Assembly: GCF_032062105.1 (NCBI RefSeq)
Contig: NW_026928197.1
Location: forward strand, 248,001-312,000
DNA from: Saccostrea cucullata
Lineage: Eukaryota
Length of the DNA: 64,000 nt
Direction of reading: 5' to 3'
Made by a program: the position numbers. This document shows, one piece after another, positions 18,001 through 63,000 of this stretch (position 1 is the stretch's first letter; each line of letters starts with the position of its first letter).

Positions 18001-21000
18001 TAATATGGAGACGACACCATTTGCCGGTGGATCGAGAGCTTCAAATTTTGTCATATACTCTGCACTTACGGCCATTGAGCAGTGAGCGGTCTTTTTCGTG
18101 CCAGCCCTACTGCGACACGGGACTCCGGTTTATATAGAGTCTCGTCCGAAGGACCGGTCTCCACGCACTACAGTGGGATTCGAACCCGCGACGTAAGGAT
18201 CAACTCCCTACCTCTATAGAGCAGACACTCTAACCACTGCGCCACGCGGGCGACTAGGGGACCAATATGTTATCATTCTTAAAGGGAATATTTTTTAGCC
18301 TAGTTATAACATACCATAGTAGTTACGTAAACTCTTAACCCGTATACTTGAAACTTCGGAAATATTTACCACGACTTTCATATGAGGAAGATATGTTTCA
18401 CTGATTGAACAGGAAGCTCCCGTTAGAAATCCACAGTAAAAAGTATGACAGTAATGGAAAACTACACCAACGAAACATCGGATACAGTAGAAGAATGGAA
18501 TAGCAAGCTAGCCAGAGTCCTAATTCCAAATAATGTCATCCTTTCTCTTTATATGATTGTAGGATTAGTTGGGAATTCTACCGTGATTTTTATTTACGGA
18601 TTTAAAATGAAAGGCAACAAGATAAAGGGAAACAAAGAAGAAAGATATTTCATTCCATTTCTTGCCACTGCTGATCTATGTGCTTCGCTAGTTTGTGCTT
18701 CGTTTGGAATCGCTCAAAACTTGATGCAGGCGACATTTGATAACGAGCCTTTGTGCAAGACCTGGTGGTTCTTTGCAGGCCTTACCACGTTGATATCAGT
18801 TTTTCTCCTTATAGTCATTGCTGTACACAGATACCTCAAGGTCTGCAAACCTCTCGGAAAACAAATGACATTGAAGTGGAAGTGGTTCGCCTTGGGTTTG
18901 TGTCTAGCAATTGCACTCCCATTAGCGGGGCCCATGACATATTTTTATGGATCGGAATCTTTCTTTAATGATGAATTGAAGATCTACGGTCGCCGATGTG
19001 GAAGATTGAGCACAACGAACAAAACGAGCTCTTTGATATTTGGTGGCTCTCTTGTTCTAACAGCAATTGCAATTATTGTTGTGTTAATCTGTCTGTATTC
19101 CAAAGTGGGGTACACTATTTTTGTACATTTTAAATATACAAAAGTTCTTGGTAACCACAATAAAACAGAATATTCTCGAAGTGGGGTCTCCACTGATGAC
19201 GACCCTTGCAGCAAATCTGACATGAGTTCGTTTGAGACCCTCGAGACACCCACTACGATAACATCGGCTGTGTACTCCACACAGAAGACCACGTGCCAAA
19301 TTGACACACCCGTTAATAAAGACAAACATCTTCCAAAGCAGTCAAGTAGAAAGCGGAGAAGAAATAAGAGAATTGTGCATAAATTTACACTGATGTTCAT
19401 GCTTATTACTATCATATTTATAATTTGTTACATTCCCAAAGTTATTATCATGCTTCTAGAGGCGAGCAACACGAAATTCTGGGAGGGGTTTTCTGATGCC
19501 GGAAGATCTGCCGTGTCGTTTGTTTACAGGATTTACATATTAAACACTGTCACGAATCCATTTATTTATGCCTTTCTTGACAAGAAATTTTCTAAGGAAA
19601 TTAAGAAATTATTTAAATCTTGTAAAATACTACAGTTCAGATAATCATAAAACGAGCATATTACTTTTAATTGTTTTCATTCATCTTTATTTTTTTTTAT
19701 TTTTTGATATAAATTGAAAAGAACTTGACTTTTCATGTTCAAAACTAGGCACGGTAGTAGCAATGCCAATGTCGATATATTGGGAATCTTTCAAGTGCAG
19801 AGTGTTATCAATGAAATGTAGTCATTTGCATCTTCTTAATCATCATTCTGTCAAATTTATGAGCAATGTTAGTGTGCCAAATGGACAGAATAAAGTTCAT
19901 TGTACAAAATTGTACAAACTTTAATTTATACATTACTTTAACAATTTTGTGAAAGAAATAAATTTAAAAAAAAACTTTTTAAATAATAAAGAGTAAACTT
20001 TTATTGCTGCATATAGTGTATTTAATGTAGCATAATTACCGAATCTTTTCTTTTAATTACATATATTCAAAAACGTAAAAAGAATCTCTTTTTTCTAAAT
20101 GAATTTGTTATATTTATGGTTTTTCTGGGAGATGGGTTTTTTAAAATTACAACAGGATTTTTTTTAAACCCATTAATGAAAGCTTATGAAAATATTCTAC
20201 ATAAAAAATGAATTTAGTAGAAAAAAAAGAAACGCTGGAAGAAGGTCATCTTAAAATTTTGTTTGTTTACCCTCTCTCCTCCGACTGACTTTAACCTCTC
20301 AATTTTGTTTAACTTCAGGAAAACAATTATGATTTTCTTAAATTTATTTCTTAGTTTTCTCAACCGATTAATAAATATTTTAACATAATTTTCGTGTTTT
20401 TGAAAAAAAAAATCTTTCACTACCTATCGATCCCGATATTTTGATTCTGAGTCGGGAGAGGACAAGTAAATATATTAATATGACCCAATATATTCAACTT
20501 GATTATACATGAGGGAGTGTGTACCAATGAACGTGAAAATAAAAACATACAGGATGTACAACAGGGCGGATGATTTTAATCAAATCAAGGAAGAATTTCC
20601 CTATGCCTTGTATATAGAGAGAGGGGAGAGAAAGAGGAGAGAGCGATTAGAAGGTTGACAACTCGCTGAAGATATTATGATCACGTATCTATATCCCTTG
20701 GCATAGGATCTTTGCTATAATATCAGAAATGTCAGTACATGAACAAAAAAAGAAAAAAAAGAAAAGATATACATGTATAAAAATAGTTTCAGTTAATCCT
20801 GGAAAGTTATCTCTAAGAGGAGCATAACTTCCAATTAAAGGGAGTGTTATGAATCATACGTCAAGTGCTACCCGGAAAGGGAGAAACAAAACCGGAGAAT
20901 TGTGCATAAGTTTAACCCGATGTTTATTGTTATAACTGTCATTTTTCTGATCTGTCTTATCTCAAAGGTCATGATTAATTTGTCAGAGGCGAAGAATGAA

Positions 21001-60000: not shown

Positions 60001-63000
60001 ATTAAGAATAAATCTGTTCAGAATTCAACAGTGAGGAGTGAAAAACATCAAGAAAAACATCAACATCAAGGAGTGAAAAATTCTATTGATGAAATAAGGG
60101 GAACAGTAATCAAGCTCAAATGTTATGAAACAACACAAATCACTGGCAGAGCAAACACAGACCTCTTAAACCATCAGAGGTGGGATCATATCAATGGAGG
60201 CCTAAGCATGCACTGTCGACTGAGCATGTCCGCCTTGTTTGGGCATATGGAAAAATGTGAAGACAATTAATTTTAAAAATTCACAAAAATGTTTGTTTTC
60301 CAATCAAGAAAACAACAAAAATTTAAGGACACAAAAATAAGCGTTTCAAAACAAGATTTCAGACGAATTTCTGGTCGTATTAATACCAAATGAATACTAT
60401 GAAGTAGACATTTGTTTTTACGCTGTGAATAAGATCTGTCATTGCTGTCTTCTTGATACGTTTTTTTTTCATTCAAATTGCATAACCTAGATAAAGAGGG
60501 ATAAGTAATGAAAAGAAATCGATTTAAGAATTCTTAAAATTTAAATGTTTCGAACAGGACATACATGTAAACACCGATTCCTAGAAAGTCCAGAGATGAG
60601 ATAAGGTACCTAGAGGAGGTAAGAATCCCCTGGCGAATAAATGTAATATCGTGGTATATGTATCAGGACACTGTACCATTCCCTTACCTGACTCATGGGC
60701 GAGGTCTGGGGTGCATATTCTATAAGGTTGACCTCACAAGGGACATTTTTAACTGTAAAACAATATTCATTGTCTTTAATCTTCCAAACACAATAAAACA
60801 ATTAAAATATAACAAGAGGGGCATTTATTAGAATGATTGGAAGGAAAACTGTGCATTATGTACAGACCTTCGCCACTAACAAACCTACTAGCACCTGTTT
60901 AACAGAGGGAAAAAAATACCAATGTTTTTAAGGTGAACGTTTTTAAGCATAAGACAATCCACCTTTTTGTTTACTCACTCTCCTCACTGTAATAAATTTT
61001 ACAAATTAATTAACTAATTATTGTCAATTAATTATATTATAATTACTTACATCAGAAACTTTCTTGTTTTAGTCGATTACTATTTTACTTTTTTTGTGGG
61101 AAACATTTACGTAGATCAGTATTTTGCATCATTCACAATAAAGCCTTATATGAATATCATCCTGTACCACACATGCATGTATATATAACGCACGTATTAT
61201 TTGATTGAAACCCTTACTTTTGAGTAACTGCACGTGACAAACACAATGCAAACGGTGCATGCATACATAACAATGAATAACTGAATAGAATAAAATATCG
61301 TGAACCAGGAAGCTCTCATTAAAATCATATAGGAGAAATGGATAACGACACATATTTATCCGAGAAACTTGAAAAGTGGAATAGTAAACTAGCCAAAGGG
61401 TTAACTCCGAATAATGTGATCCTCTCTCTGTATATTATTATAGGACTGGTGGGAAATTCTGTCGTCATTCTAATTTATGGATTTAAAATGAAAGGCAACA
61501 AAGAAGAAAGGTATTTTATCCCATTTCTTGCCTTTGCAGATTTGTGGGCCTCCTTTGTATGCGGTTCATTCGGTATTGCTCTTAACATGATGCAAGCCCA
61601 GTTTAATAACACAGATTTGTGTAAAGCGTGGTGGTTCTTCGCAGCTTTTACAACTTTTTGTTCTCTTTTTATTCTATTGATAATTGCTGTGCACAGATAT
61701 CGGAAGGTCTGCAAGCCTCTTTGCAAGCAGATGACATTAAAGTGGAAAAGAGTTGCGATGTGTATTGCGTTAATAACAGCGTTCACCTTATCTGTGCCCA
61801 TGACTCATTTTTATGGTTCCGTACCCTTTCCCAATGATGCAGAGGGCATAACTGGTTTAAGATGCAGCAGACTGAAGACCGTCAACAAAACTGGGTCTTT
61901 GATTTTTGGAGGAATTCTAGTCTTGGCAGCTATAACAATCATTATTACTCTTATTTGTCTTTATACCAAGATAGGATACACTATTCTTAAGCATTTCAAG
62001 TATACGAAGACAAGTAACAACTTTGGGACAGAACACGCCAGTAAGACCGATCAATCTCAAGTTGGAGTCTCAAGTAGTGATAACCCACTGAGTGATACAG
62101 AAAATGGGACCGAAGACATCGGACTGTCTAGCATTCAACCTGCTCCAACTTCTTCTACAGCAACAGGAACGCCCCCTACCATCGATACAACACCCACTGT
62201 AAGAAAAACAGTTCCCTTCAAGTCCAGTGCAAAGAAAAGAAAGGAGAAAGACAACCGTAAAGTTGTCTACAAATTCACTCTGATGTTCATGCTAATCACA
62301 GTCATTTTCCTCATCTGCTATATCCCAAAGGTCATTATTATGCTGCTAGAAGCCAGGAATCCCAAATTTTGGGAGGAATTCTCGGACTCCGCTAGAGCTG
62401 GGGTCTTGTTTGTGTACAGAATGTACATCATAAACAATATTACTAATCCTTTCATATACGCTTTCCTGGACAATATGTTTGCAAAACAGATAAAACATTT
62501 CTTCAGATTCTGCAGATGCTAATGTAACATTTTATTGTTGTTCTTTTTCATTCTTTTCTTGATAATGTCGTTTAAGTCTCCGTTTTATGTCTAGTTTAAT
62601 ATTTCTCTGTAGATAGACAATATCCATGACGACTTACATTCTATCTCAAAGGGCAAGTTTTTATTTTACCATTTATTTTCTTTCAGGAAAGATTCTCAAT
62701 TCAGAAATCATCATGTTAAAAATTAATAAAATGATGTGAAATAAATTTAGGACAGATGAAACATACCAACAATGGATGCCTGGATAAGCATATATTTTGG
62801 GGTCCATTTTTGTTGCAAATGATACAAACAACAACTTTCTTAATTGCCAATAACTTTCTTAAATGTTTAGAAATTATAAACCTTCTGTGGTGTTCAAAAT
62901 TCTTACTCTCTGCGATCATCCTTTTTAATCTATACAAGTAGTTTCCTTTCAGATCCGAACATTGGGGAATTTTTGAGAGAATAAACTACGTTGTGAACCT

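What the first reader, a model, noticed from the sequence alone, without database searches (positions are those of the whole stretch)
18445..62522. 13-copy tandem array of an orphan HRY-type GPCR in active birth-and-death, a candidate chemosensory/ligand-sensing repertoire
Seen: all copies are co-oriented with single-exon CDSs; 6 are intact, 5 disrupted, 2 relic. The two outermost genes (G1, G11) resemble each other more than the inner ones, while the interior runs A-psiB-relic-A-A-A-psiB-A-psiB-B. Established: intronless clustered class A GPCRs with many pseudogenes are the hallmark of chemoreceptor repertoires (vertebrate ORs, TAARs). Inference: this is a lineage-specific receptor family, not a true neuropeptide receptor, even if automated annotation calls it CCK/orexin-receptor-like.
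Basis: partly seen in the sequence, partly recalled or inferred. Interest (0 to 1): 0.75.

Follow-up and report, generated by a model that had tools for sequence, protein, structure and literature searches.

The report
Tandem array of orphan mollusc-type GPCRs
A 44-kb stretch holds thirteen head-to-tail copies of one orphan rhodopsin-type receptor gene, six intact and seven dead or fragmentary, an ordinary but cleanly documented example of the fast-turnover receptor arrays already described in molluscs.

Summary
Protein and DNA profile searches find 13 loci between 18445 and 62522, all on the + strand: 6 intact single-ORF genes of 394-416 aa, 5 disrupted full-length copies and 2 relics. All six intact proteins match Pfam 7tm_1 end to end and carry H-R-Y.

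A DNA tree gives three clades, and the outer pair splits from the rest at 100/100. Turnover is demonstrable. One 5.7-kb unit is a hybrid, 100% identical to its right neighbour at its 5' end and to its left neighbour at its 3' end. That is the pattern of a very recent unequal crossover, or of an assembly error. It copied an already frameshifted gene.

Intact genes are under purifying selection (dN/dS about 0.25). Generic pocket positions are variable on TM2/3/5 and almost fixed on TM6/7.

The chemosensory reading is neither tested nor refuted here. No expression data or cross-species phylogeny was available. The closest solved structures are orexin, RFamide and CCK peptide receptors, at low scores. 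The phenomenon is in print (PMC11886862), so this is a new member of a known kind.

The parts
18445..19644 (+). c01, intact outer-clade GPCR gene (399 aa)
   Evidence: ORF. Pfam 7tm_1 E 4.1e-28, profile positions 1-260/260. Outer clade with c13.
20831..21178 (+). c02, relic covering only the TM6-TM7-helix 8 part
   Evidence: nhmmer E 3.5e-47, profile 896-1222. About 68% identical to c01 and c04; two stops in the translated frame.
23405..24649 (+). c03, intact A-clade gene (414 aa)
   Evidence: (7tm_1 E 1.3e-30).
26226..27338 (+). c04, B-clade pseudogene
   Evidence: 13 indels and 3 in-frame stops against c12. It ends at reference nt 1121 of 1209. R3.50 is changed to I; NPxxY and helix 8 are missing.
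27373..27759 (+). c05, relic of a C-terminal half, nearest to the B clade
   Evidence: nhmmer in two pieces, E 1.2e-32 and 1.8e-06. 74% identical to c12; three stops in the translated frame. It ends 6 bp before the first 5.7-kb unit.
30714..31963 (+). c06, A-clade copy with a single 1-bp deletion at codon 278 (window 31547)
   Evidence: 95.9% identical to c08. The deletion lies in a run of only 3 A.
36397..37650 (+). c07, copy of c06 with the same 1-bp deletion (37234) plus a 4-bp insertion (36832)
   Evidence: 62 of 80 informative columns agree with c06, 5 with c08 and 13 with neither; all 13 lie in 36702-36898.
42094..43329 (+). c08, intact A-clade gene (411 aa)
   Evidence: It carries a 15-bp deletion relative to c03, c06, c07 and c10.
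45554..46740 (+). c09, B-clade pseudogene
   Evidence: 14 indels and 4 stops. P6.50 is changed to Q.
48486..49736 (+). c10, intact A-clade gene (416 aa)
   Evidence: dS to c08 is 0.152, dN/dS 0.25.
51901..53076 (+). c11, B-clade pseudogene
   Evidence: Deletions of 11, 3, 4, 9 and 6 bp and one stop at codon 90. Codons 83-141 are out of frame.
55000..56208 (+). c12, the only intact B-clade gene (402 aa)
61338..62522 (+). c13, intact outer-clade gene (394 aa)
   Evidence: (7tm_1 E 1.1e-30).
27766..44847 (+). Three tandem 5.7-kb units (27766-33455, 33456-39142, 39143-44847), each carrying one A-clade copy; the middle unit is a hybrid
   Evidence: Self-blastn gives 96.0% over 11.5 kb and 92.6% for unit 1 against unit 3. 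In 400-bp windows, unit 2 is 100% identical to unit 3 at 33456-34255 and 34656-35455, and 100% identical to unit 1 at 37056-39055.
41746..53128 (+). Older duplicated unit of about 5.1 kb holding an A gene plus a B copy (41746-46808 against 48148-53128)
   Evidence: Self-blastn, 86.0% over 5141 columns.
41884..41904 (+). Conserved 21-nt upstream motif. One of 9 sites, each 183-210 nt before the ATG of an A- or B-clade copy: 23205, 26043, 30504, 36187, 41884, 45349, 48282, 51695, 54801.
   Evidence: 9 matches against 0.09 expected. The pattern was derived from these same sequences. It is absent upstream of c01 and c13.

Best explanation
**What it is.** This is a tandem array of one orphan family of class A (rhodopsin-type) G-protein-coupled receptor genes. 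The array gains and loses copies by unequal crossing-over between repeat units of about 5-6 kb.

**The receptors.** The six intact genes encode working seven-helix receptors. They have a short glycosylated N-terminus and the TM3-ECL2 cysteine pair. The activation switches are N1.50, D2.50, H-R-Y, C-Y-x-P and NPxxY. They also have a long variable third intracellular loop and a short tail ending in a cysteine.

**The pocket.** One wall (TM6-ECL3-TM7, with K6.51, E6.58, Y7.39 and Y7.42) is the same in every copy. The other wall (TM2-TM3-TM5) differs between copies.

**Inferred ligands.** I infer that the set reads a family of related ligands sharing one anchoring moiety, with copy-specific tuning. 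The anchor would most likely be in short peptides or other small polar molecules. Signalling would go through a heterotrimeric G protein.

**Source of the ligands.** Whether they come from the water or food (chemosensation) or from the animal itself is not shown. I lean slightly to an environment- or cue-sensing role because 7 of 13 copies are dead.

**Shown:** the anatomy, the clades, the lesions, the hybrid unit, purifying selection and the split pocket pattern.

**Inferred:** ligand class, G-protein coupling and sensory role.
For: **Array and family**
- 13 loci, all on the + strand.
- 6 of 6 intact proteins match Pfam 7tm_1 over the full profile, E 1e-28 to 1e-30.
- The motifs are invariant in the six intact copies.

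**Unequal crossover**
- There are three 5.7-kb units. The middle one is identical to unit 3 at its 5' end and to unit 1 at its 3' end. This is the expected product of a misaligned exchange.
- c06 and c07 share the same 1-bp deletion.
- An older duplicated unit of A gene plus B copy is 86% identical.

**Selection**
- dN/dS is 0.24-0.27 among A- and B-clade intact pairs.
- The same counting on duplicated intergenic DNA gives 0.35-1.40.
- Pseudogene lineages still show 0.17-0.27. Their lesions are not shared among c04, c09 and c11. So they died recently and separately.

**Pocket**
- Amino-acid identity is 0.86 in TM6, 0.87 in ECL3 and 0.82 in TM7, against 0.58 in TM4, 0.61 in ECL2 and 0.40 in ICL3.
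- Generic pocket positions on TM2/3/5 are variable at 15 of 18, against 19 of 36 other outer-half positions (p 0.038).
- On TM6/7 they are variable at 1 of 11, against 13 of 24 (p 0.023).
- The two walls differ at p 0.0003.
- The closest intact pair, c08 and c10, differs at 4 TM3 positions, including 3.28 and 3.32.

**Relatives**
- The best solved relatives are peptide receptors: OX2R at E 1.3e-17 and 66.9 bits, then QRFPR, PrRPR, CCK-A, NPFF2R and BRS3.
- The nearest Atlas clusters are mollusc-dominated.
Against: - No expression, ligand or coupling data exist for these genes.
- No cross-species phylogeny could be built, so 'orphan' and 'lineage-specific' rest on weak, diffuse PDB scores and on automatic cluster names.
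- The list of pocket positions is recalled general class A knowledge, not derived from a structure of this protein. The AlphaFold model was poor (mean pLDDT 48.1). The TM5 register is uncertain by one residue: the BRS3 alignment puts 5.50 one position later. Reading the alignment with that shift still gives 4 of 6 TM5 positions variable.
- The pocket p-values are modest (0.02-0.04) and rest on six sequences that share ancestry.
- No region shows pN/pS above 0.60, so there is no direct sign of positive selection.
- The largest variability is in the intracellular loop ICL3, which concerns coupling or regulation rather than ligand.
- The 100%-identical blocks between neighbouring units could be an assembly artefact rather than a real recent duplication. 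Reads were not available.
Confidence: 0.6

Rival explanations
1. The array is an expanded set of receptors for the animal's own neuropeptides or hormones, for example a lineage-specific peptide family, and not for external cues.
For: - All of the ten best solved relatives by profile search are peptide receptors: orexin-2, QRFP, PrRP, CCK-A and NPFF2.
- The poor model predicts an ECL2 hairpin.
- The TM3-ECL2 cysteines are kept.
- TM6-ECL3-TM7 is nearly invariant. This would be expected if all copies grip one conserved peptide end.
- Purifying selection, dN/dS about 0.25.
- In Lymnaea about 450 'FMRFamide receptor-like' genes sit in tandem groups of 4 to 26 (PMC11589774, passages).
Against: - Scores to peptide receptors are low (at most 67 bits) and spread over unrelated subfamilies, with HCA2, kappa-opioid and AT2 close behind.
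- 7 of 13 copies are dead. From general knowledge, such turnover is unusual for endocrine receptors.
- Position 6.59 is Ala, with Glu at 6.58. The acidic 6.59 that I recall as typical of RFamide/NPY-type receptors is therefore absent. That point is recalled, not tested.
Confidence: 0.3
2. The receptors act on blood cells (hemocytes) as chemotactic or danger sensors, as chemokine and formyl-peptide receptors do in vertebrates.
For: - In Crassostrea virginica, transcripts annotated 'cholecystokinin receptor-like' are among GPCRs more highly expressed in granulocytes (PMC13070813, passages).
- The nearest Atlas clusters carry that same automatic name.
- An H-R-Y motif is otherwise reported for the chemokine receptor XCR1 (PMC13655292, passages).
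Against: - The loci named in that paper cannot be linked to this array with the tools at hand.
- The automatic name is shared by many unrelated mollusc GPCRs.
- HRY in XCR1 is a single-residue coincidence. No chemokine receptor ranks above the peptide receptors.
Confidence: 0.08
3. Part of the copy number is an assembly artefact. The middle 5.7-kb unit, with c07, was created by mis-assembly of two haplotypes or of repeat reads, and the single-base frameshift of c06 and c07 may be a consensus error. This rival is not exclusive of the others.
For: - Unit 2 is 100% identical to one neighbour over about 2 kb and to the other over about 2 kb.
- Between those blocks there is a 200-bp patch of 13 columns that match neither neighbour.
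- c06 has only one lesion, and its substitutions still look constrained (dN/dS about 0.17).
Against: - A hybrid with 5' from the right-hand unit and 3' from the left-hand unit is exactly what a real unequal exchange yields.
- The deletion is in a run of only three A, not a long homopolymer.
- The other ten loci differ from each other by 8-30% and cannot be haplotype copies.
Confidence: 0.15
4. The whole array is decaying, and the six open frames are simply not yet hit.
For: Seven of 13 copies are dead.
Against: - Intact copies that diverged at dS 0.15-0.99 carry no stop or frameshift in about 1.2 kb. Pseudogenes of similar age carry 1-4 stops and 5-14 indels.
- dN/dS of about 0.25 is below the intergenic control of 0.35-1.40.
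- All activation motifs are invariant.
Confidence: 0.03

Closest known systems
[quoted passage not shown] 2025, PMC11886862). I read the abstract, sections 11, 22 and 23, and passages.
   Same: Class A receptors in tandem groups, classed as full-length, truncated or pseudogene, and proposed as chemoreceptors. Ostreida are named among the expanded bivalve orders, with 265 such genes in Crassostrea angulata.
   Different: - That paper reports high entropy in the extracellular segments of all seven helices and in the loops, and no conserved TM3-ECL2 disulfide.
- Here TM6-ECL3-TM7 is nearly invariant and both cysteines are kept.
- Whether this very array is in their set could not be checked, because supplements are closed.
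Tandem 'FMRFamide receptor-like' GPCR clusters of Lymnaea stagnalis (Koene et al. 2024, PMC11589774; passages).
   Same: Tandem groups of 4 to 26 rhodopsin-type genes. Some lack a complete 7TM, and the groups are interspersed with repeats.
   Different: A different species and a different automatic name.
Vertebrate odorant receptor and TAAR clusters
   Same: - Single-exon coding sequences, co-oriented tandem clusters, a large share of pseudogenes, and copy gain and loss by unequal crossing-over.
- As in TAARs, part of the pocket is fixed while the rest varies. This is my analogy, not a test.
   Different: - Not the same family. Only 1 of 6 proteins touches Pfam 7tm_4, at 19.6 bits against a cut-off of 27.
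- Position 3.32 is A, V or G, not Asp.
- Expression in sensory neurons is unknown.
Orexin, QRFP, PrRP, CCK-A, NPFF2 and BRS3 receptors (the closest solved structures).
   Same: They are the best profile matches, E 1.3e-17 to 1.4e-13. C-Y-x-P in TM6 aligns with the same motif in the orexin-2 receptor (alignment).
   Different: Scores are at most 67 bits and cover only parts of the protein. His replaces Asp or Glu at 3.49. ICL3 is long and the tail is short. No orthology has been shown.
XCR1, a chemokine receptor with H-R-Y (PMC13655292; passages).
   Same: His at position 3.49. In XCR1, changing it to Asp markedly reduced surface expression.
   Different: An unrelated subfamily that shares only this one residue.

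Membership tests
Class A (rhodopsin-type) GPCR, Pfam PF00001 | Full-length match to 7tm_1 above the curated cut-off | tested here: met
   6 of 6 intact proteins score 99-107 bits against a cut-off of 30.5, over profile positions 1-260/260.
Class A (rhodopsin-type) GPCR, Pfam PF00001 | Conserved switches: N1.50, D2.50, (D/E)RY, CWxP, NPxxY and the TM3-ECL2 cysteine pair (motif names recalled) | tested here: met
   N, D, R3.50, P6.50, NPxxY and both Cys are invariant in the six intact copies. Two variants are fixed: H at 3.49 and Y at 6.48.
Conserved neuropeptide receptors (CCK, orexin, RFamide type) | Orthology by phylogeny with reference receptors | not testable with these tools
Conserved neuropeptide receptors (CCK, orexin, RFamide type) | Strong, specific sequence similarity to one receptor type | tested here: not met
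   The best score is 66.9 bits (OX2R). The next hits are spread over QRFPR, PrRPR, CCK-A, NPFF2R, BRS3, HCA2, kappa-opioid and AT2.
Aminergic receptors (automatic name 'alpha-2 adrenergic receptor-like') | Asp at 3.32 to bind the amine (recalled) | tested here: not met
   Position 3.32 is A, A, V, V, V, G in the six intact copies.
Lophotrochozoan class A lineage-specific expansions (PMC11886862) | Tandem clustering with full-length, truncated and pseudogene members | tested here: met
   13 co-oriented loci in 44 kb: 6 intact, 5 disrupted and 2 relics.
Lophotrochozoan class A lineage-specific expansions (PMC11886862) | No 1:1 orthologues across families, orders or most species | not testable with these tools
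   No other mollusc genome could be searched. The Atlas clusters only show mollusc-dominated neighbours.
Lophotrochozoan class A lineage-specific expansions (PMC11886862) | High variability of the extracellular ends of all helices and of the loops | tested here: inconclusive
   Met for TM2/3/5, TM4 and ECL2. Not met for TM6, ECL3 and TM7, where identity is 0.82-0.87 and only 1 of 11 pocket positions varies.
Chemosensory receptor repertoire (functional class) | Expression in chemosensory cells and response to external cues | not testable with these tools
   No transcript data or assays were available.
Vertebrate olfactory receptors, Pfam PF13853 (7tm_4) | Match above the curated cut-off | tested here: not met
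   One of 6 proteins scores 19.6 bits against a cut-off of 27; the other five have no match.

The most novel reading that the evidence does not exclude
The array is a copy-number-polymorphic, 'anchored-pocket' sensory receptor subfamily, a bivalve counterpart of TAARs. A fixed wall (K6.51, E6.58, Y7.39, Y7.42) would grip a moiety common to a class of external cues, such as food-, biofilm- or settlement-related peptides or amino-acid derivatives. The TM2/3/5 wall would tune each copy. The fixed His at 3.49 would alter basal activity or trafficking. Individuals would differ in how many working copies they carry.
Probability: 0.2. Interest if true: 0.55.

Novelty: new member of a known kind. Interest (0 to 1): 0.3.

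Why it matters
Fast-evolving class A GPCR arrays are proposed, without functional proof, to be the chemoreceptors of molluscs (PMC11886862). Candidate chemosensory GPCRs of bivalves are described as still unknown (PMC11682238, passage).

This array is small, complete within one window at its left edge, and has six clearly intact members in three clades. It also gives a concrete split of the pocket into a fixed and a variable wall. That makes it a convenient test set for deorphanisation. 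One hybrid unit also suggests it is a likely copy-number variant.

The finding adds no new principle. Its value is as a well-dissected example and as a caution that 'CCK receptor-like' and 'adrenergic receptor-like' names for such genes are uninformative.

Tried and rejected
**Structure.** AlphaFold2 on the six-sequence alignment gave mean pLDDT 48.1 and pTM 0.44. That is too poor for a fold search, so none was run. The second fold job was not used, because no deeper alignment could be made.

**Gene conversion from A genes into the B-clade pseudogenes.** This would have explained their constrained-looking substitutions, but it is not supported. Only 12 of 66, 8 of 40 and 10 of 46 lineage-specific changes equal an A-clade state.

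**Other genes or mobile elements inside the array.**
- 7 ORFs of 90 aa or more within or between the units, and 2 more upstream of the array, gave no Pfam match at E below 0.04.
- Rfam at gathering threshold found 0 matches.
- ARAGORN found 0 tRNAs.
- A stretch upstream of c01 (about 18145-18255) looked tRNA-like to my eye, but had no Rfam match at E up to 1 and no second copy in the window.

**Poly(A) signals.** An AATAAA lies within 600 nt after 12 of 13 loci, dead ones included. This is not informative in AT-rich DNA.

**Literature.**
- The 'HRY motif' + GPCR search returned 3 of 3 papers, none on molluscs.
- Searches for oyster or bivalve chemosensory GPCRs found no paper on this particular array.
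- PMC10416452 held the term only in an abbreviation list.

**Aminergic reading of the long-ICL3, short-tail architecture.** Rejected, because position 3.32 is not Asp.

**Species.** None of the annotated collections covers animals.

Full report
**What is there**

The window has no N and is AT-rich, at 25-38% G+C in 2-kb windows. Six ATG-to-stop ORFs of 394-416 aa lie on the + strand between 18445 and 62522.

Three searches give the same 13 loci, all on the + strand, and nothing else in the 64 kb:
- tblastn with the six intact ORF proteins;
- nhmmer with a DNA profile of the eleven full-length copies;
- hmmsearch with a protein profile on the six-frame translation.

I number the loci c01 to c13. 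The six intact genes are c01, c03, c08, c10, c12 and c13.

The five disrupted copies:

| Copy | Lesions |
|---|---|
| c04 | 13 indels, 3 stops, 3' end missing |
| c06 | one 1-bp deletion at codon 278 |
| c07 | the same deletion plus a 4-bp insertion at codon 146 |
| c09 | 14 indels, 4 stops |
| c11 | five deletions, one stop; codons 83-141 out of frame |

The two relics are c02 (TM6 to helix 8 only, about 68% identical to c01 and c04) and c05 (a C-terminal half, 74% identical to c12).

**The protein**

All six intact proteins match Pfam 7tm_1 over the whole profile, E 1e-28 to 1e-30.

These residues are invariant in the six:
- an N-terminal N-x-T site;
- N1.50 and D2.50;
- the TM3 and ECL2 cysteines;
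- H-R-Y, with R3.50 kept and His fixed at 3.49;
- Y5.58;
- C-Y-I-P in TM6;
- NPxxY;
- a helix-8 Phe and a terminal Cys.

HRY is present in 10 of 11 full-length copies; c04 reads HIY. Motif names and numbering are recalled class A conventions. The alignment to the orexin-2 receptor confirms the register for TM2, TM3, TM6 and TM7.

The AlphaFold model was poor (mean pLDDT 48.1). It still shows seven long helices, an ECL2 hairpin and helix 8. I did not use it for a fold search.

**Clades and history**

A maximum-likelihood DNA tree of the 11 full-length copies gives three groups:
- an outer pair, c01 and c13 (100/100);
- a B clade of c12 plus the pseudogenes c04, c09 and c11 (100/100);
- an A clade of c03, then c08, c10 and the pair c06+c07 (98/98).

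The tree has no outgroup and both outer branches are long (0.38 and 0.26). What is shown is the split, not that the outer pair are sisters rather than two early branches. c01 is 63% identical to c13 and 51-57% to the others. c13 is 59.3% identical to c01 and 58.6% to c03.

Synonymous divergence is graded:

| Comparison | dS |
|---|---|
| c06-c07 | 0.027 |
| c08-c10 | 0.152 |
| c03 vs the rest of the A clade | about 0.41 |
| A vs B | 0.93-0.99 |
| Outer pair vs anything | above 2 or saturated |

Duplication has therefore gone on over a long span.

**Mechanism of turnover**

Self-comparison shows three tandem 5.7-kb units (27766-33455, 33456-39142, 39143-44847). It also shows an older unit of about 5.1 kb, holding an A gene plus a B copy, present twice at 86% identity.

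In 400-bp windows the middle 5.7-kb unit behaves as a hybrid:
- It is 100% identical to the right-hand unit at 33456-34255 and 34656-35455, and 99-100% up to 36255.
- It is 100% identical to the left-hand unit over 37056-39055.
- The left and right units differ by 8-18% in that latter part.

A hybrid with the 5' part of the downstream unit and the 3' part of the upstream unit is what a misaligned exchange between two units produces. This is an inference from the standard model of unequal crossing-over.

The gene it carries, c07, agrees with c06 at 62 of 80 informative columns, with c08 at 5 and with neither at 13. All 13 lie in a 200-bp patch at 36702-36898 that includes the 4-bp insertion. 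c06 and c07 share the frameshift, so a dead gene was copied.

The three B-clade pseudogenes share no lesion. Counting c06/c07 as one event, there were at least four separate inactivations, plus the two relics. 'Active birth-and-death' is supported.

The caveat is that identical blocks between neighbouring repeats can also come from mis-assembly. This could not be checked without reads. The shared deletion sits in a run of only three A.

**Selection**

Pairwise Nei-Gojobori dN/dS is 0.24-0.27 among intact A and B genes.

Lineage-specific single-base changes give 0.21-0.24 for intact genes and 0.17-0.27 for the pseudogenes. The same codon counting on duplicated intergenic DNA gives 0.35-1.40 across nine frame-by-segment estimates.

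The pseudogenes thus still carry the signature of past constraint and died late in their history. Conversion from A genes does not explain this. No region exceeds pN/pS 0.60.

**Where the copies differ**

Amino-acid identity by region over the 15 pairs of the six intact proteins, and pooled pN/pS over six A/B-clade pairs:

| Region | Identity | pN/pS |
|---|---|---|
| ECL3 | 0.87 | 0.00 |
| TM6 | 0.86 | 0.11 |
| TM7 | 0.82 | 0.18 |
| ECL2 | 0.61 | 0.42 |
| TM4 | 0.58 | 0.54 |
| ICL3 | 0.40 | 0.60 |

I then scored 29 generic class A ligand-contact positions. The list is recalled, not derived here.
- On TM2/3/5, 15 of 18 are variable, against 19 of 36 other positions in the outer halves of those helices (p 0.038).
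- On TM6/7, only 1 of 11 is variable, against 13 of 24 (p 0.023).
- The two walls differ at p 0.0003.
- With all TM positions as background the TM2/3/5 contrast is p 0.003.

The fixed wall includes K6.51, E6.58, Y7.39 and Y7.42. The closest intact pair, c08 and c10, differs at four TM3 positions, including 3.28 and 3.32, and at 23 ICL3 columns.

The numbers are small and the sequences are related, so I treat this as suggestive. It points to a shared anchor with copy-specific tuning.

**Relatives**

A single-sequence search of the PDB gives weak, scattered hits. The best is the PrRP receptor at E 8.6e-12 and 47.9 bits.

A profile of the six proteins ranks orexin-2 first (1.3e-17, 66.9 bits). 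It is followed by QRFP, PrRP, CCK-A and NPFF2 receptors, then orexin-1 and BRS3, and further down kappa-opioid, HCA2 and AT2.

Both Atlas queries, c08 and c13, found their own sequence held letter for letter. Their nearest clusters are mollusc-dominated and auto-named 'alpha-2 adrenergic receptor-like' (507 members) and 'Cholecystokinin receptor type A-like'.

The remaining collections hold no animal genomes.

**What is in print**

- **Nath et al. 2025** (PMC11886862; abstract, sections 11, 22 and 23, and passages). They describe lineage-specific class A expansions in 238 lophotrochozoan genomes, with tandem arrangement and pseudogene classes. Ostreida are among the expanded bivalve orders, with 265 such genes in Crassostrea angulata. 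They propose chemoreception by analogy, without expression or ligand data.
  - They report high variability at the outer ends of all seven helices and no conserved TM3-ECL2 disulfide. This array departs from that on its TM6-ECL3-TM7 side and keeps the cysteines.
- **Koene et al. 2024** (PMC11589774; passages). They report tandem groups of 4 to 26 'FMRFamide receptor-like' genes in Lymnaea.
- **A bivalve tentacle study** (PMC11682238; passages). It states that candidate chemosensory GPCRs of bivalves were unknown, and cites a count of 586 GPCRs (454 class A) for the Pacific oyster. I saw the cited oyster paper (Mar Pollut Bull 2022) only as a reference entry.
- **HRY.** It is discussed for XCR1, where H3.49D markedly reduced surface expression (PMC13655292; passages).
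- **Hemocytes.** 'Cholecystokinin receptor-like' transcripts are higher in granulocytes of C. virginica (PMC13070813; passages). I cannot link those loci to this array.

My six literature searches found nothing on this specific array.

**Surroundings**

The array's left edge is inside the window. Upstream lies a gene on the minus strand with a CUB domain split over two exons (8619-8903 and 5380-5736) and a transmembrane tail (4779-5399). The exons were searched one by one, and each is just below the Pfam cut-off. I made no joined model.

Only 1.5 kb follows c13, so the right edge of the array is unknown.

**Verdict**

The evolutionary reading (orphan family, birth-and-death) is supported. The functional reading (chemosensory, not a neuropeptide receptor) is open.

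I put about 0.45 on an external-cue role, 0.3 on endogenous peptides, under 0.1 on hemocyte sensing, and the remainder unassigned. This is a new member of a known kind.

Noticed in passing
window 4779-8903, minus strand: A neighbouring multi-exon gene. A CUB domain is split between 8619-8903 (profile 24-72, 20.5 bits) and 5380-5736 (profile 72-110, 17.8 bits). A hydrophobic segment and Cys-rich tail follow in 4779-5399. Each exon is just under the Pfam cut-off of 21.4 bits.
   Followed up: partly
window 7280-8153: A tandem repeat of a 168-bp unit, 5.2 copies at 86% matches. It lies between the two CUB exons and so probably sits in an intron.
   Followed up: no
window 23205-54821 (nine sites): A 21-nt motif lies 183-210 nt upstream of the ATG of all nine A- and B-clade copies, pseudogenes included: 9 matches against 0.09 expected. 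It is conserved although A and B differ by dS of about 0.95. It contains a GTAA that could be a splice donor, and a CAG lies about 25 nt before most ATGs. A short 5' UTR intron or a shared promoter element is possible but untested. The motif is absent at c01 and c13.
   Followed up: partly
window 36702-36898: A 200-bp patch inside c07 holds 13 columns (9 substitutions and a 4-bp insertion) that match neither parent unit. The rest of the unit is 100% identical to one parent or the other. It could be a short conversion tract from an unseen donor, clustered mutation at the crossover, or assembly noise.
   Followed up: partly
window 47091-47602: A G+C-richer tandem repeat with periods of 132 and 52 bp, up to 6.2 copies at 94-97% matches. 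It lies between c09 and c10 and is absent from the paralogous spacer.
   Followed up: no
window 16554-17306: A cluster of short tandem repeats (periods 39-64 bp) overlaps a 297-bp self-complementary stretch at 16976-17272. It lies about 1.2 kb upstream of the first gene of the array.
   Followed up: no
window 18145-18255: A G+C-rich stretch just upstream of c01 looked tRNA-derived to my eye in the alignment. ARAGORN, Rfam at E up to 1 and a self-search gave nothing.
   Followed up: yes
window 1-334 and 465-788: A direct repeat of about 330 bp at 96% identity at the left end of the window.
   Followed up: no
window 43329 region (c08, alignment columns 896-910): What first looked like a 15-bp insertion in c06 and c07 is an in-frame 15-bp deletion in the intact gene c08, within ICL3. 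c10, c06 and c07 have all 15 bases, and c03 has 10 of them.
   Followed up: yes
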